Source of the DNA: a virus
Taxonomy: Duplodnaviria; Caudoviricetes
Strand: one strand, 5' to 3'
Virus record (IMG/VR): IMGVR_UViG_3300009031_000221
Location: 32,001-96,000 of that record
Length of the DNA: 64,000 nucleotides
The notes under the pieces were generated by a model. It searched no databases. It was not told where the DNA came from and worked only from the letters and a program-made list of their open reading frames with translations. Each line of letters opens with the position of its first letter. The first letter of the stretch is position 1. This document shows, piece by piece, positions 1-18,700 of this stretch. A program made the translations under genes and the position numbers.

Positions 1-3000
1 TCCCTTGCCGCTGTGCTTGCGGCATAGGACAAAGTTGTTACCGTTGATGAAGTCCCGGGCAAAACCAAATACCGTGCAAACTACAACGAATTGAAAGTCC
101 TCAAACGCATGCGGGGACGTTCCATATTGAAGCGCCCTTGTCAAGTCCAGAACATTCGATGGGACGATATAGGTATGGTCACCCGTTTGTTGCGGCCCTC
201 CCAGAGGAGACGTTATATCCTGCGCTCCATCCCGAAGGATGAACAAGGTTTGGCTATCCACGTCCTCTCGTAGGAGGTTCGGAGCAGCATCATTGTCCGC
301 GCCCCAACGATTGTTGACATCGATGGTACGCCCGCCCTTGGTCACGAAGTCCCGGTAGTCATACACCCCAATGAGGCGTGCCACACCGTAGTAAGGGGGC
401 AACTGAATACCCTTAAGTCCACGACCGAAATCCGATGAGTTCACTGCAGCCAAACTGTCAATGACATTCTGAGCATACGGGACAACATTGTTGATACTAG
501 TGGTCTTGCGTGCCGCAATGTAGGGCTGATTGTTCGTGCCAACAGTGGTCGTACCGTGGTGTGCATATGTTGCCAAACCCGTCACAAACAACATATTCTT
601 GACTTGGTTTCCGCCAGTCGGGTTGTCTTCCCCACCAATGACATTGAACACAGGTCGCGTCACATCTTCCCTATCCAGGAACAAGTGATTGATACCAGGC
701 ATGAAGGGCTGGGGGGATTCCCCTATGTACTTGTAGTATGGAATATCCTGCCTGCCGAAGCGAGGCATGAATTCGTAAGGAACCGCAAAGCCCATCTTCT
801 TGCCGTCCGCGGGCGTCCCTGTAAATATTTGATTGCAGTCCTTGGCCCCACCATCCGTATATGTATACGGACCCATAAGAGATTGCGGCAAGAAACCCGT
901 GAAATCCGTAGCATCCAAAGTCATATCCCGGCTTCGGAATGGCCGGAAAATGATAGTCTTGCTACCACGGTCTACGAACAACTCGTGTTCGCGGTCTTGC
1001 TCCGTGAACCCGACAACGTTACCCCCATAGTTAGGGGCGAACGGTGCGTGCCAACCGAGACCGGGCAAACGATTCCACAACTGGACATGATTTGCATTCC
1101 AGAACATTTCGCCGGCGGGGCCAGGGAATGTCGGGTCTACCGCAATGGGGCTCTGCCGTAGGTAGGGCCCGTCAGAAGGGACGCTGCCGACACGGGCAAA
1201 ACGTACCAATTCATCTGCCACACGTGCCGTTGCCCCATGTCCCGGATGGTACATGAAGGTCGTGTTGAGGATCATCTTGTTCGGGACACCTGACGCAGGT
1301 AGAGATAGGTCATATCCATCAACGGCACCGAATCCCAAGTATTCTTTCTTCCACGGATGCTCCGTCAATCCGGCTACGTCCGTCAGGACAACAGCTACAT
1401 CAGCCCAACGGCTAGGGTTGTATACCGACAAATCCTCGGAATGGGTGTATTGCGATCGAAATTCAATCGTGACAGCCCCACCAGAAGCCGAATTGAAACC
1501 CCCCGTCGTAAATCCAGGACTCAATGCCTGAACTACAATACCTGTGGATATAGGGGCATTCTTATTTGTATAACCTGCGGTCATACCCGCCCCGATAACC
1601 TTGAATGCTCCGTTGTTATTCTGGGCCCCTGCGGCATCGTCCCCATATAGAACAACATAGACTTCCGATGATGCCCCCGTGCTATCCCTACCCCCATCTG
1701 TCAACATCCCGTATAGGGTCTTGAGGTCGTGGAACAAGGGATTGGTAATCAGGGTCGGATCATCCTGGAAATTACCCGCGATATCCTTGCTGAACCAATT
1801 AACATTATCAAAATCGACGCCGACATCGATATATCCAATAGCATTAGGGATATCTACGTCGAACAACTTCGTCGCAAGAATATTCGTCATCCGCAGGCTC
1901 GTGTGCAGGATGCTGCCAAGGACAACGAATGGGCGTTCGAAGTTGGTCTCCCGCCAAGGATACATCGGCCCAACGTGACGGGCGGCATCAATAGCTGATA
2001 GTCCCGGAGGCGCCGCTTCTAATCCACGTTGCTGCACAAAACGCAACGATACAGGATTCTGATTACCATTGGCGGGATCCACAATGGGGTATCCCGTCTT
2101 CCAGTACTCCTTGGGGGTCACAAGGCGAACCCCACGAGTACCAGAATCCTTGAATGTGCCACGAACACCCTGATTGCCGAACTCGCCGCCTGTAAACAGA
2201 AGAATACTCGAACCATCGGTCCAGTTTGTCCCGCCTACGTCATTCATGAATCCTGATGGGTGGAAGTCCGGGCCTACATCCCAAGTCACGTTCACGTCAA
2301 ATGGATCTGTAGTTATCCCAACCGTACCCTGATCCTGTGTAGCCTCATTGTCACACATGATTGTTACATCAGTCTGCAACGCTGCTGCGTCTGACCACAC
2401 CGTACGAATACCATCGGGCCCATCTACTCGAGTGGTGTAATTCGGAGTCGCAATAGCACTGCCAGCCAACAACGAATCAACCTCATGGATAACGGGTCCA
2501 ATGGTCGTGCCCTTGGATTCCTGCTTCCATGCAGACTTGAGCGTGCCCTTTGTCAATGCAGCTACGTTATGTGCCAATAGACGATTGTAATCCCAATCCT
2601 GGGCATTGATGGCATGACGGAGATCCAACACGTCCTGACGGGCAATCTCGTCCGCAAACAAACCATCGGGACGGTTGTTGTAGAACTTGATGGGTGCCCC
2701 TAGGAGATGACCTGCTGCGGCAGTACCAAATCTACCACGCCCGCCAGCGGGGATTGTGATATCCCCCGTGTTAGTATCCACAGCACTGACACCAACAATT
2801 TCATTGTCAATGACCAGGAACACATGAGACAAATCCGCCTGCATATAAGGGTCATCCAAACCAGATGCACCTAATAGCAATGGGTCTGTATGGATTACCA
2901 AATCCGTTGACAACATAATGCTTGTCAATAGCGGAGTCTGGAGTTCACGTGACGTAGGGTTCGGAGCATGTGTTGCCATCGGCATACGGTCGAATGAACC

Positions 3001-3903
3001 ATTGTGCGTTGGATTGCCCCCACCATGTTGAACGGCACTGTAGTCATTCGACCCACGGCGGAAGATGGCACAAACAGGAATGGCATATACATAGCCATCT
3101 ACCGTGCCGAATGAATTGTCTGGGTCTCCGTTGCCCGCACGCCACAGAGAAGGATCCCCAAGCTCCGTCCGCATATTCTCAAATGCGCCGAGTAACGCCA
3201 CGGGGCTTGCGAATGTACCCTGCCCATAGATGTAGGGATCTCCCAAACCATCGGGATAGACATTCAATGTTACGGTAGACCCATTGCCTACACCACCACC
3301 ATGAACACGAAGACGGTACTGAACCTGAATCCGTGCCGTAGTGTCATAACCAATGGTGGGATCCTCAAGGTCATCGTCAATATTCGTCCCGCCAAACAAA
3401 ACATTGCCATACTTGAAAATCTTCGTAGCCTCAGGCTTGTTTGCGGTAGACGGGTTTGCATCTACCCGAGTCTGCCATGCCTCTAGGAACACATAGTCAA
3501 TCCGGGTGTCAGATTCTGGAGGTGCCATGAGGCTAATGACGTTGGACAAGTCATCGATCTGCGTTCCGGCAATAGGTAGAACCCAACCGTTGACATTCGC
3601 CCAAACTACAGGCTGCGTTTCAGGAGATTCCTGCATTCCCGTTGGCGTACGAGGGTTCCCCAGACGAAAACGATTAGCCCAGTTTGGATTGAACTGGAAG
3701 TCTACATCAGCACGAGTCGGATCCATAAAGAAACCAGACGGCACCATGGTACGAACCACTTGCCGCAGGCTCTCCCAAGCCTCCAAACTCATTAGGTTTA
3801 ACTCTGAGTCCAAAGGCGGCTTGCCTTTCTGCCATACCACGGCAGAAAACTGCCGTGCGAAAGCATCCATGGGACGGGAAACACCAGGTCCGAAATCTAC
3901 CAT
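1..3903 (-). CDS. Large virion structural protein (fibre/baseplate adaptor, DUF6519-like N-terminal motif); 3'-partial, at least 1301 aa; paralogue of 15718..19212
   Basis: Not in the ORF track, as expected for a frame with no stop inside the window. ATG at 3903 with GAGG upstream; translates MVDFGPGVSRPMDAFARQFSAVVWQKGKPPLDSELNL...RIDYVFLEAW...ARIQVQYRLRV...TVDGYVYAIPVCAIFRR...RPDGLFADEIARQDVLDLRH; the frame is still open at base 1 (...ARDFINGNNFVLCRKHSGKG). Confidence 0.9.
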   Translation of the reverse strand, partial: MVDFGPGVSRPMDAFARQFSAVVWQKGKPPLDSELNLMSLEAWESLRQVVRTMVPSGFFMDPTRADVDFQFNPNWANRFRLGNPRTPTGMQESPETQPVVWANVNGWVLPIAGTQIDDLSNVISLMAPPESDTRIDYVFLEAWQTRVDANPSTANKPEATKIFKYGNVLFGGTNIDDDLEDPTIGYDTTARIQVQYRLRVHGGGVGNGSTVTLNVYPDGLGDPYIYGQGTFASPVALLGAFENMRTELGDPSLWRAGNGDPDNSFGTVDGYVYAIPVCAIFRRGSNDYSAVQHGGGNPTHNGSFDRMPMATHAPNPTSRELQTPLLTSIMLSTDLVIHTDPLLLGASGLDDPYMQADLSHVFLVIDNEIVGVSAVDTNTGDITIPAGGRGRFGTAAAGHLLGAPIKFYNNRPDGLFADEIARQDVLDLRHAINAQDWDYNRLLAHNVAALTKGTLKSAWKQESKGTTIGPVIHEVDSLLAGSAIATPNYTTRVDGPDGIRTVWSDAAALQTDVTIMCDNEATQDQGTVGITTDPFDVNVTWDVGPDFHPSGFMNDVGGTNWTDGSSILLFTGGEFGNQGVRGTFKDSGTRGVRLVTPKEYWKTGYPIVDPANGNQNPVSLRFVQQRGLEAAPPGLSAIDAARHVGPMYPWRETNFERPFVVLGSILHTSLRMTNILATKLFDVDIPNAIGYIDVGVDFDNVNWFSKDIAGNFQDDPTLITNPLFHDLKTLYGMLTDGGRDSTGASSEVYVVLYGDDAAGAQNNNGAFKVIGAGMTAGYTNKNAPISTGIVVQALSPGFTTGGFNSASGGAVTIEFRSQYTHSEDLSVYNPSRWADVAVVLTDVAGLTEHPWKKEYLGFGAVDGYDLSLPASGVPNKMILNTTFMYHPGHGATARVADELVRFARVGSVPSDGPYLRQSPIAVDPTFPGPAGEMFWNANHVQLWNRLPGLGWHAPFAPNYGGNVVGFTEQDREHELFVDRGSKTIIFRPFRSRDMTLDATDFTGFLPQSLMGPYTYTDGGAKDCNQIFTGTPADGKKMGFAVPYEFMPRFGRQDIPYYKYIGESPQPFMPGINHLFLDREDVTRPVFNVIGGEDNPTGGNQVKNMLFVTGLATYAHHGTTTVGTNNQPYIAARKTTSINNVVPYAQNVIDSLAAVNSSDFGRGLKGIQLPPYYGVARLIGVYDYRDFVTKGGRTIDVNNRWGADNDAAPNLLREDVDSQTLFILRDGAQDITSPLGGPQQTGDHTYIVPSNVLDLTRALQYGTSPHAFEDFQFVVVCTVFGFARDFINGNNFVLCRKHSGKG

Positions 3904-3919
3904 GTTCGCCTCAGTTCAA

Positions 3920-4756
3920 TCAGAACAACACTGCGTAGGTTGCGATATACCGCTTGCTCGCGGAGGTGTTCAAGAAAGCCACCCTAATCTTCGTTGTCTT
4001 CGAGCAGAATGCTATGGACTCCAATAGTCCCGCTTGGCACCATGTCGTTCCATTATCAGGAGACAAATAGGCAGAGAACCCACTAGGTTCCTGATCGCAT
4101 TCCTTGATCGTCCTAATCGCAGGGTCATTGGTCAGGTTATGAGCGACATCATTGGAGATATCAAACTCGTAAAGCTTCCAATACATAACGAACTCATCGG
4201 CGCCAACCGGGTCACCTGAAAATGGATCCAGTGTGTATGCCCCGATGTCAATCTCCTTGGTGATAAGAAGACCAGGGTGATTCGGGAGGCTCGTCGGATG
4301 AACAGGATCCAAAGTTGGATTGATCGGGAGCAATGCTGTATGCGTTGGCATTTGCCCAGGCAAGGGGTTCAGAATCGAACGACCCGTTTGCAACCGTGGA
4401 GAGTAAATGTGAATGTTCGGAGGATCGGAGAACGTATCGCGGAATGTCGCCGTGAAATCAAGTTCCTCAACATGCGTGGAGGTCAACAACGGGTTAAAAT
4501 AGACGTTGCCGAACATCGGATACTGGGCTAACAGGTAGGCATACGAGATGCTGGATACATCGCCACCATCGCAATCCCCTAGACCATCCAATACGTAGGA
4601 GCTACTATCGATTGGGAACTCCGCGCCTTTGACTACAGGTATCGCGTACTTCCCATTAATGGGAACGGCGCCATCAGTACCAGTCGTGGGGGTGCGTTCG
4701 ACCTGAACGATCTTAGGGTCATTAGGATGGCTTTTAAGGTCTATGAGGATCCGCAT
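3920..4756 (-). CDS. Hypothetical virion structural protein (278 aa)
   Basis: Long ORF co-oriented with the tail genes, GAGG upstream, 16 nt from the next gene; C-terminus is beta-strand-like (FSAYLSPDNGTTW...TKIRVAFLN). Confidence 0.75.
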   Translation of the reverse strand: MRILIDLKSHPNDPKIVQVERTPTTGTDGAVPINGKYAIPVVKGAEFPIDSSSYVLDGLGDCDGGDVSSISYAYLLAQYPMFGNVYFNPLLTSTHVEELDFTATFRDTFSDPPNIHIYSPRLQTGRSILNPLPGQMPTHTALLPINPTLDPVHPTSLPNHPGLLITKEIDIGAYTLDPFSGDPVGADEFVMYWKLYEFDISNDVAHNLTNDPAIRTIKECDQEPSGFSAYLSPDNGTTWCQAGLLESIAFCSKTTKIRVAFLNTSASKRYIATYAVLF

Positions 4757-4798
4757 GTCTTATGATACCTCTCGTACAACGTACTCATTCACGGGGGA

Positions 4799-4805
4799 CT
4801 ATAGG
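4799..4805 (-). promoter_or_regulatory. Candidate late-promoter element CCTATAG upstream of 3920..4756
   Basis: The same heptamer occurs at 32247-32254, and related TAT-core elements occur in the other minus-strand intergenic gaps. Confidence 0.35.
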
Positions 4806-4848
4806 ATACCTAACGCCGTTCATTATACCGAAAGTTACGTTTTACAGG

Positions 4849-4876
4849 CTTACTATTCGGAAGTTCAGCGTAGATG
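4849..4876 (+). promoter_or_regulatory. Repeated bipartite promoter-like motif, copy 1: CTTACT-N11-CAGCGTAGAT
   Basis: CTTACT 4849-4854, CAGCGTAGAT 4866-4875; identical boxes and spacing in copies 2 and 3; 37 nt upstream of ATG 4912. Confidence 0.8.
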
Positions 4877-4911
4877 TTATGTGGGATGCCTAGCACCCCC
4901 AGGAGATGTCA

Positions 4912-5631
4912 ATGAAGTTCCTCAAAACCATGACCCTGGCGCTGGCCCTTTCCCTTCCCGTGCAGTCACATGCGGCGGAATCGAAGCCCGTGATCGTCGT
5001 GGCGGAAGACTTGGCACAGCAGGCCAAAGAACGCTTCAAGGCCGGGGAATTCGAAGTTGCTGCCAAGATGTTCATGAACGCTTACGCCAAGAGCCATGCC
5101 CCGGCGATGGTGTTCAACGCCGCGAGAGCCTACGAGAATGCGGGGAAGAACGGCGATGCCGCAAGCCTGTTCCGCCTCTACGTCAGCCTGTCGGATGATA
5201 CGGATGGCATGATTGAAGCCCGTCAGCATCTCGCCAAGTTGAACACGCCCTCCCCGGTCATCGTTCAGCCCCCGCAGGCACGCCCGACCCCGCGTCCAGT
5301 GGCCCCGATGGTTCCTGTTGCCGTTACCCCCGCTCCGTCGCATACGGCAGCGTGGGCGGTCACTGGAGGCGCCGCAGCGGCAGTGTTGAGCGGTGTTACC
5401 CTCATCGGCATTGCCAGTGCAGACTCGAATCAGGCCAATGCGGATTACCGTCGCACGGGGGACTTGCAGGCATACAGGAACGCCTATAGTACGTCGCAAA
5501 CCGAATGGTGGGCCGGAGTTGCCATCACGGGTGCTGGCGCGGTCCTAGGTGGCGTTTCCGTGTACATGTGGAACAAGCCCGTCACCGTCACGCCCATGGG
5601 CAAGGGAATCGCCTTCGGCGGATCTTTCTAG
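4912..5631 (+). CDS. Exported TPR-like protein with Pro-rich linker and two C-terminal hydrophobic segments (myxobacterial-type envelope protein), 239 aa
   Basis: AGGAG 6 nt before ATG 4912; signal peptide MKFLKTMTLALALSLPVQSHA; TPR-like AKERFKAGEFEVAAKMFMNAYAKSHAPAMVFNAARAYENAGKNGDAASLFRLYV; hydrophobic segments AAWAVTGGAAAAVLSGVTLIGIA and WWAGVAITGAGAVLGGVSVYMW; ends GKGIAFGGSF. Confidence 0.8.
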   Translation: MKFLKTMTLALALSLPVQSHAAESKPVIVVAEDLAQQAKERFKAGEFEVAAKMFMNAYAKSHAPAMVFNAARAYENAGKNGDAASLFRLYVSLSDDTDGMIEARQHLAKLNTPSPVIVQPPQARPTPRPVAPMVPVAVTPAPSHTAAWAVTGGAAAAVLSGVTLIGIASADSNQANADYRRTGDLQAYRNAYSTSQTEWWAGVAITGAGAVLGGVSVYMWNKPVTVTPMGKGIAFGGSF

Positions 5632-5641
5632 GGATTGATGA

Positions 5642-5669
5642 CTTACTTTGGGAGAGTTCAGCGTAGATG
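5642..5669 (+). promoter_or_regulatory. Repeated bipartite promoter-like motif, copy 2
   Basis: CTTACT 5642-5647, CAGCGTAGAT 5659-5668; begins 10 nt after the upstream stop codon. Confidence 0.8.
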
Positions 5670-5693
5670 ATGTGTACGCTGGTTGTCACATCA
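5668..5693. repeat. Perfect 7-bp inverted repeat TGATGTG-N12-CACATCA (operator-like site or 5' hairpin)
   Basis: Read directly; overlaps the 3' end of promoter copy 2. Confidence 0.55.
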
Positions 5694-5742
5694 GCGGGAT
5701 CCACATCGAAGCCGAAAAGTAGTCCCTGGGAGGGGCGTACCT

Positions 5743-6042
5743 ATGCCAAATTTTCAGCGAGTGGTGGTTGGTCTTCTGGTTCTCGTCATCATCAACCTGT
5801 TCGGGCTGCTGGTGACGGGGCATCAGGTCAATGTCAACCTGAAGAAACTGGTCGCACATAGCCCCGCACCGGAGGAACATGCCAAAAAGGGGATCGACGA
5901 GCAGATCCTGGATCTGTGGGCGGAGCAGAACGACATCCCCCTTCCACAACATGTATCAGCGGATACGATGTCCCAAAAGGAAGTGGAGGACATATTCAAC
6001 AAGCGGGGGATCGTCCCGGCATTGCCGATTTCTACGAAATGA
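5743..6042 (+). CDS. Small single-pass membrane protein, 99 aa
   Basis: GGGAGGGG 7 nt before ATG 5743 (the track start at 5683 has no RBS); N-terminal hydrophobic helix VVVGLLVLVIINLFGLLV. Confidence 0.75.
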   Translation: MPNFQRVVVGLLVLVIINLFGLLVTGHQVNVNLKKLVAHSPAPEEHAKKGIDEQILDLWAEQNDIPLPQHVSADTMSQKEVEDIFNKRGIVPALPISTK

Positions 6043-6074
6043 ACGGTTCGTATCATAAATACAGCTAAGCGTGA

Positions 6075-6101
6075 CTTACTTTTCCCATCGACAGCGTAGA
6101 T
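6075..6101 (+). promoter_or_regulatory. Repeated bipartite promoter-like motif, copy 3
   Basis: CTTACT 6075-6080, CAGCGTAGAT 6092-6101; 40 nt upstream of ATG 6141. Confidence 0.8.
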
Positions 6102-6109
6102 AGAAGGTA

Positions 6110-6126
6110 GGGCGCCTGAGGTGCCC
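6110..6126 (+). promoter_or_regulatory. 5' leader stem-loop GGGCGCC-TGA-GGTGCCC
   Basis: 7-bp stem with one G-U pair, lying between promoter copy 3 and the AAGGA RBS. Confidence 0.5.
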
Positions 6127-6140
6127 ACAAGGAACCTTCG

Positions 6141-6746
6141 ATGAACTGCCTCAAACTCGCAATGTTGCTCCTGGCCCTGACGATGCCCGCGTGCCTCGCG
6201 GAACGTCTGGATGACCCCTGCGATGCCCCCGCCAGCACCCGCCTGAAGGCGAACGGCGATGGCACGTTCCACGACAAGCTCCTGAACATCGATTGTTCGT
6301 TCTTCAAGGCGGAAGGTCACGGCAAGCTATGCTTGCCCGTGTGGACACACCAAAATGGCACCAATGGATTCGGCAACTCCGATTTCCCTGAGGCCACTGC
6401 TACGGTGAACCACCAATCATCGGATTGTCAGTCAAATCAGATATTTTGGGCCAATCAGGGGCCTTTCGGGGACTTCCCCAAGTATGGCTTCACGATGGCG
6501 TCGGCGGATTCCGTATCCGCGGTCTTCAACCTTCGTGACCCTGACCCGACAACCGTTACCAGCACAGACCCGAAGACCGGAAAAGCAACGGGAATCAGCG
6601 ATTACTATTCGACGGCAGATTGCATTGGACCGAAGACCGCAAAGGATCAACAAAACGGATTCTTCATGATTGCTGATGGACAAGCCTCCATCCCTGCGTG
6701 CCCCTACATGACAGGCCTGGGATTGTTTGCGGGCATGCCTCAGTAG
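6141..6746 (+). CDS. Putative Cys-rich lipoprotein, 201 aa
   Basis: AAGGA RBS; N-terminal MNCLKLAMLLLALTMPA-C (imperfect lipobox); motif STRLKA...FHDKLLNIDCSFFKAEGHGKLCLP; Cys-rich mature part. Confidence 0.7.
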   Translation: MNCLKLAMLLLALTMPACLAERLDDPCDAPASTRLKANGDGTFHDKLLNIDCSFFKAEGHGKLCLPVWTHQNGTNGFGNSDFPEATATVNHQSSDCQSNQIFWANQGPFGDFPKYGFTMASADSVSAVFNLRDPDPTTVTSTDPKTGKATGISDYYSTADCIGPKTAKDQQNGFFMIADGQASIPACPYMTGLGLFAGMPQ

Positions 6747-6748
6747 GA

Positions 6749-9700
6749 TTACACGTTGCCGTTGTTCGCGTCGACATTGCCTGCGACAATTCCCGCCGCG
6801 AATACATTCTGTGCCACATTACCAACCACAACAACCGAATTTACCTTTGCTGCCAAAGTATCCGTGTTGGTGATTCCCGCGGCACCCAGAATCATATTGC
6901 CGGTAAGGACTACGGGATCGACCTGAGCCGCCGCAGCCGATCCGAGGACAATACTATTGGTAACCATGTTGCCCGTGATTACGGCATGGGTAAGGTTTTC
7001 ACCAAAAGTAATAAATCCCGCAATGTTGTTAAAAATCATGGTAGAACTGCTCAGGATGCTGATAGTGTTTCCTGTCGGGAGATTGTTCCCCGCTACCTGT
7101 GTTCCCCCGCTAGCCGCATTCACCGTGATTCCCCCAAACATCTGATTACCAGTAATCATGTTGTTTGTCCCTGTGACATCAATAGCGCCGGTCGTGTTGC
7201 TTGCGATGACGTTTTCTGCCCCCACAACCGTAACCGTACCGTTATTTCCCGCAGAACAAGTACTGTTACCTGTGAAGTTCAATTTACTGGCATAGGCAAC
7301 CAATCCCGTTGCGCTTTGCATTTGGTTACCTGTCACCGTCCCATAGATTGCGACATGTCCCGCATCCCCAATAATGAGTCCAGGACTTCCTATTGTATTC
7401 CCCGTAACTGTGAAGTAGCTGCTTAGTGTTCCTCTACCTAGAATCAGGGATGCGGCAAACGTGTTGTCTCCAATGGTGCCGAAGTTCGCATCCAGAATCT
7501 CGAATACCCCCGCAATCCGATTTCCTGTGATCTCGTAAGGACCCCCAATGTTGATCTTGTCTGCAGTCCCCGCACCGGTACTGATGCTAGTAATGACATT
7601 GTTGGCGATGATTGGACGCAAGCTTGCAACGGCACCGGCACTGAGTCCAACGTAATCAGTAAGTGTCGCGATGGTGTTCCCTATCAGTTTGCAATCATCA
7701 TGGAAGCATAGACCTGAACCAAACGTGTTGCCCTCAACGGTATTCCCGTCCCATACGTAACCATTCGCAAACGTATTGCCTACGATAGTGTTATTTGAGC
7801 CTCCCGTTGGCAAGTTAGTTACAACATCATAGCCCGCTGCCAATATGTAGGCGTAATTCCCTGCAATGTAGCAATTAGTGCCATCAACCTTCATCACATT
7901 GCACACATTGCTTTGAACAGACGCGCCATAACCGAAAACGTAGATGTGCCAAGGGTTTGACACATTTACAGTGACCGTATTGTGGTGGACGCTAACCGTA
8001 GGAGGGCTGCCAAGAACAGGATAGCCTACGTGAATACCATCATCGTAGTTTCCAACAACGGATACATCCATATCTACTGAGTTGTGGCCAACGGTAGTAT
8101 TGAGGTTTTCCTTGGTGAAAACCAGAATGCCATACTTGAACCCCCACAACATGTCCACTAACCCGGTGTGGATCACGCTCAGATTGTTGTTGTTGATTTT
8201 CACACCACCCGCAGCAATGAGTCCCGTGTGCAGGGTGCCATTGATGTAGTTCCCATCAATAATGCCCGCGCCCCCACCAACCCAAATACCATTACCGAAT
8301 CCAGTAATGTAATTGTTCCGAATGGTCACATTCGAAATCTTGTCATTCAAGTAGAAGGTAGCCGTGTCATCATGAAGGATCTTGATTCCTACCGTACCTG
8401 TTCTACCTCCCAATACCGAAGTCCCAAACAAGTTCCCTTCGATAATCGTGTTTGCTATGGGTGATCCAATCTGAACGCAATGAATGCCGTCCCCACGCAA
8501 TGAAGTAGCATGGTTGCTTGTGATCCTAGATTCCGTTACCACAAATGCCTGCGCCTTGAGGAAATTGTAAACATAGCCATTTGCACGGCAGTTGTCGATG
8601 ATCACATTAGATGAGGGCCCGCTGGAAGTAATGAAAAGAGAATTGGTGGCTACCATGGGATCTGCCCCCAGGAATCGGAATGCCAAATCACGAAATACAA
8701 GATCCGAACGACCATTCAGATCAATCAGATCCTTGGTTGCGTCGTCCCACGAAATTTCCGTTGTATTGATTCCGGATGCCGAAAGAGGCATACCCTCAAT
8801 GACCAATCCATTGGTCTTGATCTCAATAGGCAGGACGGTTTCCAATGTACGCCCTATTACTCGAATCCGAACCTGCTTATAGGCGGGGCCTCCTGATTCG
8901 GGAGCCATCATTTCGCTAGCGTATCCGACAGCTTCCCCTAGTGTCTTGAAATGAGCATGCCCATTGTTGAACGAAATCCAATCTACATTGGTCCCACCGA
9001 TTTCTCCTACCGTAATTTCCAACCGCTTGTCCATGTCCCGAATAGGATTCTGGAGATTCATCACGGTAGCAACACCGCCCGATACCACAACCTTCGCGAT
9101 AAGGATATCCTCAGGGTGAGGAAGAGGGAATGCATTAGCCCCATCAATGAACCATGACGTGTAATAACACGCAGGGCATGTTGTGCCGTCATTGTGTTCA
9201 AAATAGAAGTAGAAAATGTTAGGATCCACCGCAGAAGGGATCTGAATCGTTACCTGCGGAGTCAGCATACGTTGACCCTGCATCAAAATTGTTGCCGGAT
9301 CGATCGTGATATCGTAATGAGTCCCTGCAATAAGCGCACTTGCAGTCACTCGAGTTGACTTGAGATGCCATGATGAGAACATGTCATCGAGGTTCTTCTG
9401 AAGGTTCAGTGTCTGCGTACCCTTGGCACGCACGGTTACCGATCCATCCGTGTTAGCAACAACATCGGCATCATCGAATCGAACTGAAGAGGAGCGCTTC
9501 GCTGAACCATAGGTCGTATCGAATTGGTAATTGACACCGGCTACACCCGTGAGGTCATTCGGGGTAACAACCTCACGGCGGAATACCACAACATGAGGAT
9601 TGGCAGCATCAATAGTGAAAGAATCTACAGGGCCCCCAGCCTGGACGCCGCCCCCATAAAGCTCACCCAATATTGTGAAATCAATACCTGTAACAGGGTC

Positions 9701-11998
9701 TACATAGAGTGCTACTTTGCGGTATCCAAATAGGGATCCCCGATATCCAACCCCGCCAACGACAGCCGGATCCCCATCGGAATAATCCCCTTGAATCAAC
9801 TCAAAGAACCCCGATCCAGGGATACTTACAGTCCAATCCCCTTCAAGTGCAATAGTCTGAGGATTGGACATATCCACGACATGTTGACTAGTTATTACCT
9901 GAGGCATCAGAACACTGACAGGAATCACAATCCGATTACTGAAAGCGTCTACGGTATCCTTGGTCGCAGGCGTGTCCCCACAGTAGGCTCCGTCAAGCAT
10001 CGATGGATGCCCCCCAGTCACACGGATATTGGCCCCAAGCTGTCCTTCCTCCATGGAGTAAGGAACACAACATGCGAACAAAACCATCTCACCACGGGGA
10101 TTATCCGTTGACGTAAACACCGTTGGATCAGAAGGATAAAGTGGGCCATCCTTGATGGGATGCGAGAACCGAACCAATCCATTAGAGTAATCTACCTCTA
10201 CGTACTGCTTCTCGGCATTCTTGGATGAATCAAGCATCAACTCGTTTGATGTAACGGGGTTATCCCAATCAGGAACAAGAATTGGGATGGCTGGCCCGCC
10301 TAGAGGGTTCGGTTCAGCACCGACCTTCGCAGGGAATAGAACCATACGGAATCCGAGATCCATCAAGCTACCAGGATTTGCATAGCCCGCAGTTCCGCTC
10401 TTCGCCGTATCAAATACTGCCCGATCCGCCCGACCAGGATTCAACCCACTGGACTTCATCGAACGCTCAACCCAACGGGGATCGATGATGTTGGTCAACC
10501 TTGCGGATTGAATCTTGTCGATGTCGGCATACCGTGTAGACCACAAATCCGTCACAGGATCATGGACAGTGGCCTCCACAAAGATGCCCTTACCGACAGC
10601 AGGGGCGGATGTATGGATCGAGTAATATTCCCCAGATCCCGTCCTTGAGAAACCAAGGGCGGGATTATTCTCTTCCATACGACGCAGAACCCAATAATTC
10701 AAAGGCCCGGCGACGGACGCCGTAACCTCAAACCATCCCATCAAAGAGGATTGATTGATTTCAAAGTCATTGGGCCATCGGAATGCCGCACCCCCAACAG
10801 TTTGAACTGATGTGATATGCAGGATTTTCCCTACCAAGCTTCCCGTGAATACGGGATCCGGGGCATCCATCAATATGAAAGTGCCCGCGGGACTTTCAGC
10901 CACAGGCCATGCAGGATCCAATAACCCTGTTACAGGATCAATGCCATGCAAACGACCCTTCCAATTTCCTACGGGACGCGGAATAGGCAACTTGGGGCCG
11001 TAAGCGTAATCAAAGGTGCTGCCCGTAAGCAATGGGAGATTAATTTGGTCTTCTGTCCAGTTAGGGATAGTAGTCCACACATTGTAAGGGTAGCGTTCGT
11101 CTGTACCCAATGCTCGACGAGGGGGCACAACAGCAAATGCCTGCGACTCTTTGACCCCGCCACTCGATGATCCAGGCACGGCAACTAGACGGGTTGCCTG
11201 CGGTTGTAGGATTGTGATGGCACGAATGACGGGATTCGCAGGAATCGTGAAATAATTTGCCAAACGCTTGTTTGGATCCAGTATGATGACATCAACACGA
11301 ACTGCAATGATACGGAAAATCTCATATTTAGCGTTTGGATCTACCGGGGTCAATCCGGTATATCCCACAATAGGACCAGGAACAGAATTCTCCAATACGC
11401 ATCCGTCACCAATACCACCGACAACAGGGCCGGGCAGATTTCCTTCGCCTCCGGTCTGAGATATGACCATGTAAAGGCCACCAGGATAATCCGTTGCGCT
11501 AATAACCCCATTGGGAATCCCGTACAAATCTGTAACGGTATCACCTGGAGTCACTTGGTTCAGTTGCAATTCATCTCCGCCACCAGGGCTGGTAACCGTC
11601 CACTGCCAAGAACCCGTGTAACTATTCTTGAGCGTGGGGCCAACCACGGAGAACGAAATCGGATGTCCTACGAAAGAACCACCCTTGGAACCGAAACGAT
11701 TGGTGCCCCAGTTGTAGGGGGCGAAATTGATTTCAGGGTGACCAGGTTGACCGATCTTGCTAATCTTGTACTGTGAAGGATTTGGAACGTTCGCATCATC
11801 CGAACGGGACTCATTATAAGACCCTGTATCCATTTGATGGGATGCAGCCCATGATCCAGCCATACCACGAATGACTTCAGCAGCTTGAGACACACGTGCT
11901 GCCGGAACAGTTTGCCACTTGGACAAAGCTTCCTGCCACGAGTCCCTCGATGATGTCGTTGCGGTGATAGGATCGGCACCGAGATTCTGATTCGCCAT
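6749..11998 (-). CDS. Tailspike/receptor-binding protein with C-terminal right-handed beta-helix (pectin-lyase-like), 1749 aa
   Basis: The C-terminal ~700 aa consist of Asn/Gly/Ile/Val-rich repeats (IxxNxI, VxGNxF, IxGNxI), preceded by ITVG...HFKTLGEAV, typical of beta-helix entry; lies in the fibre region. Confidence 0.8.
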   Translation of the reverse strand: MANQNLGADPITATTSSRDSWQEALSKWQTVPAARVSQAAEVIRGMAGSWAASHQMDTGSYNESRSDDANVPNPSQYKISKIGQPGHPEINFAPYNWGTNRFGSKGGSFVGHPISFSVVGPTLKNSYTGSWQWTVTSPGGGDELQLNQVTPGDTVTDLYGIPNGVISATDYPGGLYMVISQTGGEGNLPGPVVGGIGDGCVLENSVPGPIVGYTGLTPVDPNAKYEIFRIIAVRVDVIILDPNKRLANYFTIPANPVIRAITILQPQATRLVAVPGSSSGGVKESQAFAVVPPRRALGTDERYPYNVWTTIPNWTEDQINLPLLTGSTFDYAYGPKLPIPRPVGNWKGRLHGIDPVTGLLDPAWPVAESPAGTFILMDAPDPVFTGSLVGKILHITSVQTVGGAAFRWPNDFEINQSSLMGWFEVTASVAGPLNYWVLRRMEENNPALGFSRTGSGEYYSIHTSAPAVGKGIFVEATVHDPVTDLWSTRYADIDKIQSARLTNIIDPRWVERSMKSSGLNPGRADRAVFDTAKSGTAGYANPGSLMDLGFRMVLFPAKVGAEPNPLGGPAIPILVPDWDNPVTSNELMLDSSKNAEKQYVEVDYSNGLVRFSHPIKDGPLYPSDPTVFTSTDNPRGEMVLFACCVPYSMEEGQLGANIRVTGGHPSMLDGAYCGDTPATKDTVDAFSNRIVIPVSVLMPQVITSQHVVDMSNPQTIALEGDWTVSIPGSGFFELIQGDYSDGDPAVVGGVGYRGSLFGYRKVALYVDPVTGIDFTILGELYGGGVQAGGPVDSFTIDAANPHVVVFRREVVTPNDLTGVAGVNYQFDTTYGSAKRSSSVRFDDADVVANTDGSVTVRAKGTQTLNLQKNLDDMFSSWHLKSTRVTASALIAGTHYDITIDPATILMQGQRMLTPQVTIQIPSAVDPNIFYFYFEHNDGTTCPACYYTSWFIDGANAFPLPHPEDILIAKVVVSGGVATVMNLQNPIRDMDKRLEITVGEIGGTNVDWISFNNGHAHFKTLGEAVGYASEMMAPESGGPAYKQVRIRVIGRTLETVLPIEIKTNGLVIEGMPLSASGINTTEISWDDATKDLIDLNGRSDLVFRDLAFRFLGADPMVATNSLFITSSGPSSNVIIDNCRANGYVYNFLKAQAFVVTESRITSNHATSLRGDGIHCVQIGSPIANTIIEGNLFGTSVLGGRTGTVGIKILHDDTATFYLNDKISNVTIRNNYITGFGNGIWVGGGAGIIDGNYINGTLHTGLIAAGGVKINNNNLSVIHTGLVDMLWGFKYGILVFTKENLNTTVGHNSVDMDVSVVGNYDDGIHVGYPVLGSPPTVSVHHNTVTVNVSNPWHIYVFGYGASVQSNVCNVMKVDGTNCYIAGNYAYILAAGYDVVTNLPTGGSNNTIVGNTFANGYVWDGNTVEGNTFGSGLCFHDDCKLIGNTIATLTDYVGLSAGAVASLRPIIANNVITSISTGAGTADKINIGGPYEITGNRIAGVFEILDANFGTIGDNTFAASLILGRGTLSSYFTVTGNTIGSPGLIIGDAGHVAIYGTVTGNQMQSATGLVAYASKLNFTGNSTCSAGNNGTVTVVGAENVIASNTTGAIDVTGTNNMITGNQMFGGITVNAASGGTQVAGNNLPTGNTISILSSSTMIFNNIAGFITFGENLTHAVITGNMVTNSIVLGSAAAAQVDPVVLTGNMILGAAGITNTDTLAAKVNSVVVVGNVAQNVFAAGIVAGNVDANNGNV

Positions 11999-15717: not shown

Positions 15718-18700
15718 TTAGGGTCCAGGGACTACACAGGCACGATCCCCAACCAGGAGCAGAAGATTCCGCGTCCTGTACAAGGCGGCACATGTCCGAT
15801 TATCTACAAGTGGGTCCGTGAATCGCACGGTATTCTCATCATCCAATTCGGCAAACCGAGTCAGGACAACCAAAAGCAATTCATTCTTACGATACAGCAA
15901 TCCATCATCCGAACCCGCCACATCCTCAACCGCACGGGCAAGGAATGGGAACAGAACCTTGTGCCGAACCGCACCGTACAAAGGCTGGGAAAGTACCGTT
16001 GGACGATACATCCAGTCCGCAGCAAACGGGTAATAGGCACGAAAATCCGCATCTTTACGGGGTCGTTGATCAGCGGCGGCACCACCAAACTCCAGGATGT
16101 TCTGCCCATCGGCCTGAACAAATGGACGAAGCGCTACCAAACCAGTGTCGGCATTGAAGTCCGCAATGGTCACGTCAGCCGTTCCGCAGAAATACCATTC
16201 CTTGATTTGCCCCGGAATATCACCATCATTGGTAGGCATCTGATCCATAGGCGCCAAGTATGGGAATGCCCGATCCTGTGACCCTGCCCCAACTTGACCC
16301 GTCCACACATCAGAACCCATGCACAGAGGTTCTACATGCAGCGTAGCCGGCAATACGCCAGACCCTATTGTATCCATGACACCTTCCACGACCCCTGCCG
16401 TTTGTGGAGCATTGGTACGGAAGTATACATTCAATTGGTACCCTGAATTTCCATAATTCGGAATTGGATCCTGTGCAAAGTACTCAACCTGACAAAGAGT
16501 TTGTCCCGGATTCGTCAGGATAACGCTGGTCTTCACCAACCTCGAAGATGACCCCCACTCAGTGAGTGCCAAATCGACAACATTCATTCCAGGTGCCAGC
16601 ATATCGGACACCTTTGTATTAGCTCTATCCTCGAAAACCCGACGAGGGAATCGGAGATAATCCTGATCCATGCTAACCAGGTATTCTTCATGCCCCGCCG
16701 TAACCCCAATGGGAACATGCAACTGATCAGGAACTGTAAGTCCCGTAGTATCATTCGCCTGATACTCAAGCTGGACTTCCCGGTAACCTTCGCGGAATCG
16801 AGGGGCCAATAGAGTTTGCATGTCATTGGGTTGTTCGCTTACGTCATCCGCAATAACTGGCCCTGGGCCATTCCCCGCCGTCCCGTCATAAACGGTAGTA
16901 TCAGGATCCAACGGATAATACACAGTATCCGTTGTACCAGCGCCAATTGGATAAGTGATCTCAATCTCTACGAATATGCGGCGTTGGGATCCAAAAAGAA
17001 CAATATCCTGTCCTACCATCGGATATGGAACTGGGAATAATACTGCGCTACCGCTATCTACCAAAGTAGGGTTGGTATCCAATGGGATCTCAACGTGCAG
17101 TGTGCCTAGACCCTGGATAACTCCAGCCTGAACATCTTGGCCTACAGCAGCTACGGAGTAACCGTCATCATGACGAATAGACAACACATCCGTAATGACC
17201 GTGCCAACCGGCATACAATCACTCGTATGCCACGCAGCAGCTACGGAAGGAACGTTGACGCCCCCTTGGAATATGCCACCCAAAGTCGTCGGATTGAATT
17301 GTGTCAGGTCAAGGTGTAGAACGTCACCTACATACCAAGCCGCGGGGTCACTGCCAACAGCCTTGGTGACGTACTTGCCCAAGTTGGTTATCCCAGGGGG
17401 AACCGCACCTACTGTCCTGTCCCCAGGATAAAATGAGAACACAACCCGTTCTACGATGGATTGATCCCCGAACCTACGGGCGATGTGGTCAAAGTCTCGT
17501 TGGAAGTCCCCTCTGGTAGAGGTATTTCCATGGCCTCCATGGGCCGCAGAACGCCCAATGGCATTGCATACCAAGAACTGAGTGGATACATCGCCAGAAC
17601 CATTGCCCAACAACTGCTTGCTAGAAGCATCAATAGACCATGTTCGAGTCGAACCATCCAACAAAGATTGAATTTGGTACTGCAACTCCGCCGAGGTATC
17701 GACACCCGGGAAGATAACATGACGACGCAAGTCCAACAAATTCTCTTGGACAATCACATCCGCAAAGTGCTGGTCAGGACGATCCGACAATCCCGGAGGA
17801 ATCACCCCAATGATGCCCACATAGCCCGCATGGTTCCATAGCGGAGCACAGTTCGTGCCCGTTTCAGGATCAAACCCAAAGAACGGCCCTGTCGATACGT
17901 CATTGTACCTGTGAACGAAGCAAACCGGAATGGCATAGACGAACCCGTCTGCCGCGCCCAATGCGATAGCCGCCGCTTGTGTGCCGTCTCCGGCAACCCA
18001 CAAACCCGAGTCATCGATACCATAGGCGACTGCGGAAGAAGATGCCTCCGTGGTCGTCCTGTCCGCAGGAACGAAGGGATATCCCACAACAGGAGCTACA
18101 TTCCCACACTGTGCGAGAATCGTACGATTGCCCCCGCTCTTCGCGGAAAAGCCGTCCGGGTGCGTTTTGTAATTGACCGCTTCCGGCGTCCCCGTTGAAC
18201 GAAGCCGATATTGAAGCTGAATCCTCTGTGTCGTTTCTGTGTTGACAACAGGATCTTCCAGTTCATCCGGCAAACCAACCGTAGAAGGTGCCAACACGTT
18301 TCCGTGTGGATATAGCGTAGACTGCGTAGGCTTGTTCGGGTAATCCAAACCTCCCGCCAAGTTGACAGGGCCAGGGCCACCCGAAACAGTAATGCATCCC
18401 GCATTGACCAGTACCAATGCCAGGACATGTGCATTGCCTGCCAAGCCCGGGTCGATAGATTGAACGGTCACTACATTGGCATTTGCTCGAGCCGTCACCA
18501 AGGTATTAACCGGGGCAACCGTATTAATCGCGCCTGCAATGCTCAACGCCGTTGCTGTTGCATCTCCGCCAATGGCCCAATCCACACCTTCAGTCAGAAG
18601 GTTCCCATCCACTGAAACCTGATCGCCAGCGACGATGTTCCCGTTGGTCACAACTTCAATTGTTCCGGTTGCCTTCGGGCTAGGGGCTACAATGGCCTTC

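What the first reader, a model, noticed from the sequence alone, without database searches (positions are those of the whole stretch)
4757..6748. Antisense three-gene envelope-protein island embedded in the late tail-fibre operon
Seen in sequence: the only plus-strand genes in 64 kb sit together between the tailspike gene and the next structural gene. All three products are envelope-targeted (signal peptide + TPR + two hydrophobic helices; single TM helix; lipoprotein), and each gene has its own promoter-like motif. Inference: an early- or lysogen-expressed host-surface remodelling module (superinfection exclusion or receptor masking) physically linked to the receptor-binding protein whose target it might mask. 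This is the best candidate for an undescribed system in the window.
Basis: partly seen in the sequence, partly recalled or inferred. Interest (0 to 1): 0.85.

Follow-up and report, generated by a model that had tools for sequence, protein, structure and literature searches.

The report
Envelope gene cassette beside megaphage spike
A 536-kb phage that probably infects myxobacteria carries, tail-to-tail with its putative receptor-binding spike gene, an oppositely oriented cassette for a membrane-anchored TPR protein and an outer-membrane lipoprotein of unknown fold. The cassette uses the phage's non-structural promoters, sits at the same spot in four related megaphages, and most likely alters the host surface during infection, possibly to stop further phage adsorption.

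Summary
Window 4757-6748 holds the only credible plus-strand genes in 64 kb:
- A (4912-5631): signal peptide, TPR domain, Pro-rich linker and a transmembrane helical hairpin.
- B (5743-6042): N-terminal membrane anchor; an ORFan.
- C (6141-6746): lipoprotein with a six-Cys all-beta domain.

Each gene follows an exact copy of CTTACT-N13-GCGTAGAT. That motif occurs 129 times in the 536-kb genome. It fronts non-structural genes (ArdC, NAD ligase, PARP, nuclease) and is otherwise absent from genome 40-100 kb (window ~8,000-64,000, the rest of the structural block).

The conserved core is two genes, not three. A and C, with the same promoter motif, sit at the same junction (C stop 0-2 nt from the spike stop) in four other megaphage lineages that form one clade. 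Eleven further relatives lack the island. One carries an unrelated antisense lipoprotein at the same site.

A comes from a large Myxococcota family whose genes are usually followed by a lipoprotein gene. C belongs to a small family seen only on phage or mobile-element contigs, with no structural match. A and C diverge much faster than the backbone, but I found no co-variation with the spike C-terminus.

The best reading is an early or middle envelope-acting cassette analogous to T5 Llp/Cor exclusion lipoproteins. The function is untested. The scan has not noted it on other DNA.

The parts
4849..4875 (+). Promoter-like motif in front of gene A (CTTACT-N13-GCGTAGAT)
   Evidence: Exact match to the genome-wide motif. 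The motif has 129 copies against 1 for the reversed control. This copy ends 36 nt before ATG 4912.
4912..5631 (+). Gene A: secreted TPR protein with a Pro-rich linker, a C-terminal transmembrane helical hairpin and a terminal beta-hairpin (239 aa; an alternative ATG lies at 4906)
   Evidence: TPR_16 hit at E 5e-5. AlphaFold model with pLDDT about 95 over residues 28-112. Hydrophobic segments at 149-173 and 203-221. Homologues at 41-55 % identity. Family present in 142 of 301 genomes of the phylum of a MAG labelled Myxococcota. GC is 0.63 here against about 0.51 in the flanks.
5642..5668 (+). Promoter-like motif in front of gene B
   Evidence: Exact motif. It ends 74 nt before ATG 5743.
5743..6042 (+). 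Gene B: 99-aa membrane protein with an N-terminal anchor; lineage-specific ORFan
   Evidence: Hydrophobic segment within residues 1-31 and a GGGAGG ribosome-binding site. Coding score 0.18. Only self-hits among 5.8 billion proteins. Absent from L042, L089 and L092, and replaced by an unrelated 143-aa gene in L045.
6075..6101 (+). Promoter-like motif in front of gene C
   Evidence: Exact motif. It ends 39 nt before ATG 6141. The 5' leader 6102-6144 folds into a hairpin with z = -3.3.
6141..6746 (+). Gene C: 201-aa lipoprotein (Cys18) with a six-Cys all-beta domain
   Evidence: Lipoprotein-type signal and conserved Cys. Family of 23 representatives. Model pLDDT 88.8 and pTM 0.81. No fold match in PDB, BFVD or AFDB. 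The stop codon lies 2 nt from the stop of the convergent spike gene.
3920..4756 (-). Flank: conserved 278-aa structural-block gene, divergent from A; used as the synteny anchor
   Evidence: 58-70 % identity (global alignment) to the genes flanking the island in L042, L045, L089 and L092. 13 further relatives were found in IMG/VR.
6749..11998 (-). Flank: 1749-aa putative tail spike or fibre, convergent with C
   Evidence: N-terminal ~1200 aa are 52-59 % identical to relatives, the C-terminal 450 aa only 37-41 %. Beta-helix-like repeats are visible in the translation. No family match.

Best explanation
The island is an infection-time envelope cassette with a conserved two-gene core.

Shown:
- Gene A was taken from a large host (Myxococcota) family of secreted TPR proteins anchored by a transmembrane hairpin. 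In host genomes, genes of this family are typically followed by a lipoprotein gene.
- Gene C encodes a disulfide-rich lipoprotein with a fold not found in structure libraries. Its family was seen only on phage or mobile-element contigs.
- Gene B is a lineage-specific membrane ORFan.
- Each of the three genes carries the phage's abundant non-structural promoter motif.

Inferred:
- Expression is before or apart from virion genes, on the strand opposite the tail operon.
- The products are exported: A to the inner membrane with its TPR domain in the periplasm, C to the outer membrane.
- The most likely role follows from the conserved placement 0-2 nt downstream of the putative receptor-binding spike gene and from the fast turnover of A and C. 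C, helped or positioned by A, would inactivate or mask the phage's surface receptor. That would prevent superinfection and the loss of progeny on infected cells and debris, as T5 Llp and the Cor lipoproteins do.
- No step of this function has been tested.
For: - Real, exported proteins.
- The promoter motif has 129 genome copies against 1 control, with none elsewhere in genome 40-100 kb.
- Of the 20 motif-fronted genes scanned, 14 had a Pfam match and none of those is structural. They include SNase, a GHKL ATPase, PARP, NAD-dependent ligase, NAD synthase, PheRS and the anti-restriction protein ArdC.
- The A-C pair, with the same motif, sits at the same junction in L042, L045, L089 and L092, with the C stop 0-2 nt from the spike stop.
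- These five lineages form one clade on the tree of the 278-aa flank protein, with support 80/82.
- Eleven relatives have the spike gene abutting the 278-aa gene. One (L058) has an unrelated antisense lipoprotein there with a coding GC3 signature.
- Backbone identity is 52-83 %, against 42-57 % for A and 36-53 % for C. L089 and L092 share 82-83 % backbone identity but only 49 % in A and 38 % in C.
- In MAGs, A-family genes are followed by a lipoprotein-type start in 13 of 19 cases, against 3.7 % of control windows.
- A and C are adjacent or overlapping in two unrelated non-structural contexts.
- Published precedent (PMC9586334): exclusion lipoproteins are made early, Llp lies adjacent to and downstream of the receptor-binding gene pb5, and similar lipoprotein genes lie directly downstream of gpJ in many siphophages.
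Against: - There is no expression data, so timing is inferred from promoter class only.
- C has no sequence or fold similarity to Llp or Cor and is about three times larger.
- C identity does not co-vary with spike C-terminus identity in the five lineages.
- A-C pairs, or C alone, also occur away from any tail gene, and A occurs alone at another structural-block site in a close relative (L014).
- The receptor-binding role of the 1749-aa protein is itself inferred.
- Most relatives do without the island.
Confidence: 0.4

Rival explanations
1. The cassette remodels the host surface through the host's own TPR-anchor plus lipoprotein modules, and not for exclusion. The phage copy of A would compete with or substitute for host A paralogues that partner with Cys-rich, adhesin-like surface lipoproteins. 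That would install C on the cell or displace host lipoproteins, changing adhesion, aggregation, outer-membrane exchange or envelope stability to favour phage production.
For: - The A family is multi-copy in 142 of 301 genomes of the host phylum.
- 13 of 19 host copies are followed by a lipoprotein gene.
- Those lipoproteins carry Cys-rich repeats and an Lcl_C adhesin-type domain.
- A-C pairs also occur in contexts unrelated to tails.
- A occurs alone in L014.
Against: - This reading does not explain why the pair is kept within 0-2 nt of the spike gene in five lineages, or why another lipoprotein occupies the same site in L058.
- No A-C contact could be predicted, though that job gave no answer either way.
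Confidence: 0.25
2. The island is selfish or neutral cargo. Independently promoted genes were captured from host and mobile-element pools and persist at a permissive intergenic site without a specific role in this phage.
For: - A has host-like high GC.
- Each gene has its own promoter.
- The middle gene is variable, and a homing endonuclease has inserted next to the island in L089.
- The island is absent from most relatives.
Against: - A and C kept open frames, signal peptides, all six Cys and their promoters across a clade whose backbone has diverged to 52-83 % identity.
- The phage-type promoter motif shows adaptation to the phage's own programme.
Confidence: 0.15
3. The island is a lysis accessory. 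B and C would act as an inner-membrane and outer-membrane spanin pair, with A as a further lysis factor.
For: - B has an N-terminal anchor and C is a lipoprotein.
- One C-family member lies two genes upstream of a PG_binding_1 protein in another contig.
Against: - B is not conserved.
- C is a 180-aa globular six-Cys beta domain, unlike a short Pro-rich o-spanin.
- There are no PHROG spanin hits.
- The phage's endolysin-like gene (PG_binding_1 plus an M15-type motif) lies about 345 kb away.
- The promoter class is shared with non-structural genes.
Confidence: 0.05
4. The island is a SitB/SitA-like lipoprotein toxin cassette, as on the Mx-alpha prophage-like elements of Myxococcus. A would be the accessory protein and C a transferable lipoprotein effector.
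For: - The gene order is the same: a type I signal-peptide accessory gene directly upstream of a polymorphic lipoprotein gene, on mobile elements of Myxococcota (PMC5562445).
- A-C overlap or abut in some contexts.
Against: - C has no toxin domain, is far shorter than SitA (an escort domain of about 375 aa plus a nuclease), and has no downstream immunity gene because the spike gene abuts it (PMC8546572).
- A is a TPR domain plus a helical hairpin, whereas SitB is predicted to be a beta-barrel.
Confidence: 0.05

Closest known systems
T5 Llp and the Cor lipoproteins (superinfection-exclusion lipoproteins of siphophages)
   Same: Both are phage-encoded lipoproteins. The gene sits immediately next to and downstream of the receptor-binding gene. 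Expression is apart from the virion genes (early in T5). These are fast-evolving accessory genes that are present in some relatives and absent in others (PMC9586334).
   Different: C is about 183 aa when mature, against roughly 60 aa for Llp. It has a six-Cys all-beta domain with no sequence or fold match. It comes with a conserved partner, A, which Llp and Cor lack. It lies convergent with the spike gene in a 536-kb phage of a different host phylum. The receptor is unknown and the function untested.
SitB-SitA-SitI cassettes of Myxococcus (lipoprotein toxins delivered by outer-membrane exchange, on Mx-alpha elements)
   Same: An accessory gene with a type I signal peptide sits directly upstream of a polymorphic lipoprotein gene. 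The cassettes are carried by mobile or prophage-like elements of Myxococcota and occur in many alleles (PMC5562445, PMC8546572).
   Different: C has no nuclease or toxin domain, no long escort domain and no immunity gene. A has a TPR domain and a helical membrane hairpin, not the predicted barrel of SitB. Homology to SitB could not be tested here.
Slam (surface lipoprotein assembly modulator) with its substrate lipoproteins
   Same: A periplasmic TPR domain joined to a membrane domain, encoded next to the gene of a lipoprotein.
   Different: A has no DUF560 14-stranded barrel, only two helices and a short beta-hairpin. There is no evidence that C is surface-exposed.
Phage morons encoding envelope proteins (for example lambda bor and lom)
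   Same: Small envelope-protein genes with their own promoters sit inside the late or tail region. Composition differs from the flanks in gene A. They are present in some relatives only.
   Different: These genes are driven by a phage-specific promoter class, not a host-type lysogenic promoter. No terminators were found. The cassette has been inherited vertically within a clade, and the phage shows no sign of lysogeny.

Membership tests
Llp/Cor-type exclusion lipoprotein | Lipoprotein signal peptide with a lipobox cysteine | tested here: met
   C has ...LALTMPAC with Cys18. This Cys is conserved in all family members that have an N-terminus.
Llp/Cor-type exclusion lipoprotein | Gene adjacent to and downstream of the receptor-binding protein gene | tested here: inconclusive
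   The C stop lies 0-2 nt from the stop of the spike-like gene in five lineages. The receptor-binding role of that gene is inferred, with no family match.
Llp/Cor-type exclusion lipoprotein | Sequence or structural similarity to Llp or Cor | tested here: not met
   No PHROG, Pfam or NCBIfam hit. No BFVD or PDB fold match.
Llp/Cor-type exclusion lipoprotein | Early expression | tested here: inconclusive
   The promoter motif is shared with non-structural genes, including ArdC, and is absent from virion genes. No RNA data exist.
Llp/Cor-type exclusion lipoprotein | Blocks the phage receptor or prevents adsorption | not testable with these tools
   The host is uncultured and the receptor unknown.
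Two-component spanin (Rz/Rz1) | A short Pro-rich o-spanin lipoprotein with an i-spanin, within a lysis cassette | tested here: not met
   C is a globular six-Cys domain. B is not conserved. The endolysin-like gene is about 345 kb away. No PHROG hit.
SitB/SitA/SitI | A lipoprotein with an N-terminal escort domain and a C-terminal toxin, followed by an immunity gene | tested here: not met
   No toxin domain in any of the 16 C-family members. No gene lies downstream of C.
SitB/SitA/SitI | Accessory protein homologous to SitB | not tested
The A model is a TPR domain plus a helical hairpin, whereas SitB is reported as a predicted barrel.
Slam | C-terminal DUF560 outer-membrane barrel | tested here: not met
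   Pfam finds only TPR_16. The model shows two long helices and one beta-hairpin.
Moron | Own promoter, own terminator, atypical composition, patchy distribution | tested here: inconclusive
   All three genes have their own promoter motif. No convincing terminators. Only A has atypical GC. Distribution is patchy at depth but clade-wide within the subclade.

The most novel reading that the evidence does not exclude
A and C would form a previously undescribed two-component envelope system. A is a phage copy of a Myxococcota-wide TPR and membrane-hairpin protein whose host paralogues each serve a neighbouring surface lipoprotein. C is a novel-fold lipoprotein from the phage and mobile-element pool. 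Together they would reprogramme which lipoproteins the infected cell displays, giving receptor masking or exclusion by a mechanism unrelated to Llp or Cor. This reading would also expose an uncharacterised lipoprotein-handling module in myxobacteria.
Probability: 0.25. Interest if true: 0.75.

Novelty: new variant of a known kind. Interest (0 to 1): 0.55.

Why it matters
Megaphages have almost no functionally understood host-interface genes, and none is known for phages of Myxococcota.

This cassette is a concrete, conserved candidate for how such a phage edits the host envelope. It sits where exclusion lipoproteins sit in model siphophages, but it is built from different parts.

It also points to two uncharacterised families. 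One is a TPR-anchor protein family present in about half of the sampled genomes of the host phylum and usually paired with a lipoprotein gene. The other is a six-Cys lipoprotein domain with no structural relative.

The closest A homologues also give a host clue, a clade of freshwater and groundwater Myxococcota MAGs, for a 536-kb phage that has no cultured host.

Tried and rejected
- Complex prediction of mature A with mature C: verdict 'no answer', so it counts neither for nor against binding.
- Fold searches with the confident C model found nothing significant in PDB by Foldseek, PDB by VIA-align wide (best Z 2.3), BFVD or AFDB clusters (best E 1e-3, TM 0.38, unnamed).
- The ESM Atlas gave TM 0.50 to a DUF7481 cluster from Myxococcota. 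No C-family member hits any Pfam family, DUF7481 included, and DUF7481 was not found in four candidate-host MAGs. I keep it only as a weak lead.
- Atlas feature search for C was uninformative.
- PADLOC and NCBIfam gave no hits for A, B or C.
- The only public runs holding the stretch are groundwater DNA metagenomes, so timing could not be tested.
- Searches for close relatives found nothing: nucleotide search of the phage collection, the single 278-aa protein in IMG/VR, and the A and C profiles in IMG/VR. The metagenome scan with C returned only the L009-type contig again.
- Co-variation of C with the spike C-terminus was not seen. Five lineages are too few to exclude it.
- No alternative 'late' promoter motif emerged upstream of the structural genes.
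- No classic sigma-70-type promoters or convincing terminators lie in 3800-7200.
- The spanin reading was rejected (see rivals).
- The L044 contig suggested an inverted segment in the spike gene, but no inverted repeats lie at the junctions. It is probably an assembly artefact.
Full report
**Setting**

The window is bases 32001-96000 of a 536,053-bp IMG/VR virus record that CheckV rates complete. A crude gene map shows a long minus-strand block across the window. It holds very large proteins, and one of them has weak baseplate-protein matches. I treat this as the tail and baseplate part of the structural region. The finding lies between a conserved 278-aa gene (3920-4756, minus) and a 1749-aa gene (6749-11998, minus).

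I scored all 207 plus-strand ORFs of 50 aa or more for overlap with longer minus-strand ORFs and for codon usage trained on the phage's long genes. Only three are both free-standing and coding-like.
- A: 4906/4912-5631.
- B: 5743-6042.
- C: 6141-6746.

A has a cleavable signal peptide and a TPR_16 match. Its AlphaFold model shows a confident five-helix TPR domain (residues 28-112, pLDDT about 95), a disordered Pro-rich linker, a hairpin of two long helices carrying the hydrophobic segments, and a terminal beta-hairpin ending in Phe.

B has a single N-terminal hydrophobic anchor.

C has a lipoprotein-type signal ending in Cys18, followed by six Cys that are invariant or nearly so in its family.

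**The promoters belong to a genome-wide class**

Each gene is preceded by CTTACT, 13 nt, then GCGTAGAT, at 4849-4875, 5642-5668 and 6075-6101. With one substitution allowed, this bipartite motif occurs 129 times in the genome, against once for the reversed control. It is absent between genome 40 and 100 kb. The 20-40 kb bin holds five copies, three of which are the island's.

I scanned twenty genes that lie directly behind the motif. Fourteen had a Pfam match and none of those is structural: a staphylococcal-type nuclease, a GHKL ATPase, two PARP-like proteins, a nucleoside deoxyribosyltransferase, NAD-dependent DNA ligase, an AAA ATPase, NAD synthase, PheRS alpha, ArdC, a cytidylyltransferase and metallo-beta-lactamase-fold proteins.

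No classic sigma-70 promoter or convincing terminator lies in 3800-7200. The phage encodes sigma-like ORFs, and the motif's spacing resembles ECF-type promoters. Which polymerase or sigma reads it is unknown.

I infer, but have not shown, that the island belongs to the non-virion (early or middle) programme. No tyrosine integrase was found, so expression from a lysogen is unlikely.

**Gene A comes from the host gene pool**

A has homologues at 41-55 % identity. In one genome per species, 21 loci were found, labelled Myxococcota or Myxococcales in most records, some labelled otherwise but with 64-72 % GC. A profile search found the family in 142 of 301 genomes sampled from the phylum of one of those MAGs, often in many copies, with the best scores in a few MAGs. 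The protein-atlas neighbours are all Myxococcota TPR proteins of similar length. A's GC content (0.63) stands out from the flanks (about 0.51).

In the MAG loci, 13 of 19 evaluable A-family genes are followed within 450 nt by a start with a lipoprotein-type signal, usually within 30 nt. The rate in control windows is 3.7 %. The downstream proteins scanned carry Cys-rich repeats, and one carries an Lcl_C adhesin-type domain. So a TPR-anchor gene followed by a lipoprotein gene is a recurrent host architecture.

**Gene C belongs to a small family seen only on phage or mobile-element contigs**

The word-indexed search found only the protein itself. A profile of C and its L009 homologue, run against 1.84 billion representatives, found 23 proteins. 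Those retrieved with a complete N-terminus are lipoproteins, typically with an acidic low-complexity linker that the window's copy lacks. They share the six-Cys domain with conserved HDKLLD-DC, RC-P and CP--TGL-LFA motifs.

The family was not found in 301 genomes of the host phylum, apart from two weak N-terminal matches. The C model is confident (pLDDT 88.8, pTM 0.81; mostly beta). It has no significant match in PDB, BFVD or AFDB clusters. The only lead is TM 0.50 to a DUF7481 cluster in the ESM Atlas, which sequence searches did not back up.

Contigs that encode C-family members revealed four other megaphage lineages:
- L042, from a 520.7-kb scaffold;
- L045-47;
- L089-91;
- L092, from a 122-kb contig.

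All share one arrangement: a large tail protein, the 278-aa homologue, then A and C on the opposite strand, then the spike-like gene, then the 1218-aa and 1164-aa homologues. Each carries the same promoter motif in front of A, and usually in front of C as well. In all five lineages the C stop lies 0-2 nt from the spike stop.

The middle gene varies. It is B here, with no homologue anywhere. L042, L089 and L092 have none. L045 has an unrelated 143-aa cytoplasmic protein.

Thirteen more distant relatives came from IMG/VR. Three of them (L055, L056, L060) are near-identical, which leaves eleven distinct island-free lineages plus L058. None has A or C homologues. In all but one, the spike ORF runs right up to the 278-aa gene. 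The exception, L058, has an unrelated 261-aa antisense lipoprotein at exactly this site, with a coding GC3 signature.

On a tree of the 278-aa protein, the five island-bearing lineages form one clade (80/82 support). L054 (no island) and L058 (the other lipoprotein) are the nearest outside rows.

Pairwise identities among the five lineages:

| Region | Identity |
|---|---|
| Backbone proteins | 52-83 % |
| A | 42-57 % |
| C | 36-53 % |
| Spike C-terminal 450 aa | 34-60 % |

L089 and L092 share 82-83 % in the backbone but only 49 % in A and 38 % in C. So the island was inherited at a fixed place, while its alleles diverge or are exchanged much faster than their surroundings.

C identity does not correlate with spike C-terminus identity (rho -0.09). 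Ten non-independent pairs cannot settle that question.

**Other contexts**

- A and C are adjacent in a different phage-like contig with thymidylate kinase and CinA genes (L009-12; C homologue at 36 % identity).
- In an ENA contig with type I restriction and ArdC genes, the A-family gene abuts a 286-aa gene of the same length as C-family member P0017. That identity was not checked.
- C-family genes also occur without A near RecA/HTH genes, and near PTH2 and a PG_binding_1 gene.
- A occurs alone, with the promoter motif, in a close relative (L014). It lies between homologues (about 84 % identical) of genes around genome 95.4-96.9 kb, together with a nuclease gene.

The pair is therefore mobile among elements of these hosts and is not obligatorily tied to a tail gene.

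**Mechanism**

Shown:
- The three proteins are exported or membrane-inserted, so they cannot be cytoplasmically assembled virion parts.
- They carry the promoter class of the non-structural genes.
- A and C form a conserved pair kept tail-to-tail with the spike-like gene.
- They evolve fast.

Inferred:
- A sits in the inner membrane with its TPR domain in the periplasm.
- C is an outer-membrane lipoprotein.
- Expression is early or middle.

The best-supported function is receptor inactivation or masking. That would protect against superinfection and against loss of progeny on infected cells and debris. The argument is by analogy with T5 Llp and the Cor lipoproteins. These are made early and are encoded adjacent to and downstream of the receptor-binding gene, and similar lipoprotein genes lie directly downstream of gpJ in many siphophages (PMC9586334).

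The convergent, terminator-less junction also implies that island and tail transcription read antisense into each other. That would fit a temporal switch, but it is speculation. I put this reading at about 0.4.

**Rivals**

- Broader surface remodelling through the host's TPR-anchor and lipoprotein modules: 0.25.
- Neutral or selfish cargo: 0.15.
- Spanin-type lysis accessory: 0.05. It is disfavoured by C's globular six-Cys domain, by B's lack of conservation and by the endolysin-like gene lying about 345 kb away.
- SitB/SitA-like toxin cassette: 0.05. The gene order is shared, but there is no toxin domain and no immunity gene.

**Comparison and novelty**

The cassette works most like Llp/Cor but fails the similarity test for membership. 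It has a partner protein that those systems lack. It shares gene order with SitBA, and the TPR-plus-neighbouring-lipoprotein logic with Slam, without their defining domains.

I class it as a new variant of a known kind, namely a phage envelope lipoprotein cassette linked to the receptor-binding gene. It is built from two uncharacterised families, in a megaphage clade that probably infects Myxococcota.

Other first-stage notes on this same stretch described the motif and the myxobacterial flavour of the proteins. The scan holds no note of it on other DNA.

Noticed in passing
whole genome (G000); window copies at 4849-4875, 5642-5668, 6075-6101: The bipartite motif CTTACT-N13-GCGTAGAT occurs 129 times (control 1). 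It fronts non-structural genes and at least one tRNA. Its spacing resembles ECF-type promoters. The phage has sigma-like ORFs at genome 162.1 kb (Sigma70_r4_2, above the cut-off) and 366.1 kb (weak region 2 match).
   Followed up: partly
L058:9094-9879 (minus strand of the locus): A more distant relative carries an unrelated 261-aa lipoprotein gene, antisense, at exactly the spike/278-aa junction where the A-C island sits in the window's clade. The site seems to attract lipoprotein genes repeatedly.
   Followed up: partly
L014:1201-2998: In a close relative (flanks about 84 % identical to genome 95.4-96.9 kb, at and just beyond the window's end), an A homologue sits alone in another structural-block intergenic site. 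It has the promoter motif and lies next to a 210-aa gene and a staphylococcal-nuclease gene.
   Followed up: partly
L015-L035 (Myxococcota-labelled MAG loci): A-family TPR-anchor genes are followed almost immediately by a lipoprotein gene in 13 of 19 cases (control 3.7 %). The partners include very large Cys-rich proteins and one with an Lcl_C domain. This looks like an uncharacterised two-gene module of the host phylum.
   Followed up: partly
L044:4202-4947 versus L042:11780-12525: One 4.9-kb contig is identical to L042 up to a point inside the spike gene and then continues with an inverted piece of the same gene. No inverted repeats flank the junctions, so an assembly chimera is more likely than a tail-fibre inversion switch.
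   Followed up: partly
L089:7898-8989 and L045:9464-9895: The island neighbourhood collects other insertions. L089 has a LAGLIDADG-type homing endonuclease between the 278-aa gene and A. L045 has a 143-aa cytoplasmic ORF with no family match between A and C.
   Followed up: no
genome 381,945-383,625 (L093:1477-3157): The likely endolysin (PG_binding_1 plus an M15-type HxxxxxxD...H motif, 311 aa) lies about 345 kb from the island and is followed by a GIY-YIG-like endonuclease gene. SLT, T4-lysozyme and Amidase_2 families were not found in the genome.
   Followed up: partly
genome 114,487-114,730 and 131,560-131,920 (beyond the window): Two other small plus-strand ORFs (67 and 97 aa), embedded in the minus-strand block, also carry the promoter motif. 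Antisense mini-genes driven by this promoter therefore recur in the structural region.
   Followed up: no
window 1-3903 and 15718-19212: The N-terminal parts of the large tail protein at the window start and of the 1164-aa protein share local similarity. This was seen through their relatives: 29-41 % identity over about 150-aa stretches.
   Followed up: no
window 6102-6144: The leader of gene C folds into a stable hairpin (-18.1 kcal/mol, z -3.3) whose outer stem ends 4 nt before the start codon. The leaders of A and B are not unusual.
   Followed up: no
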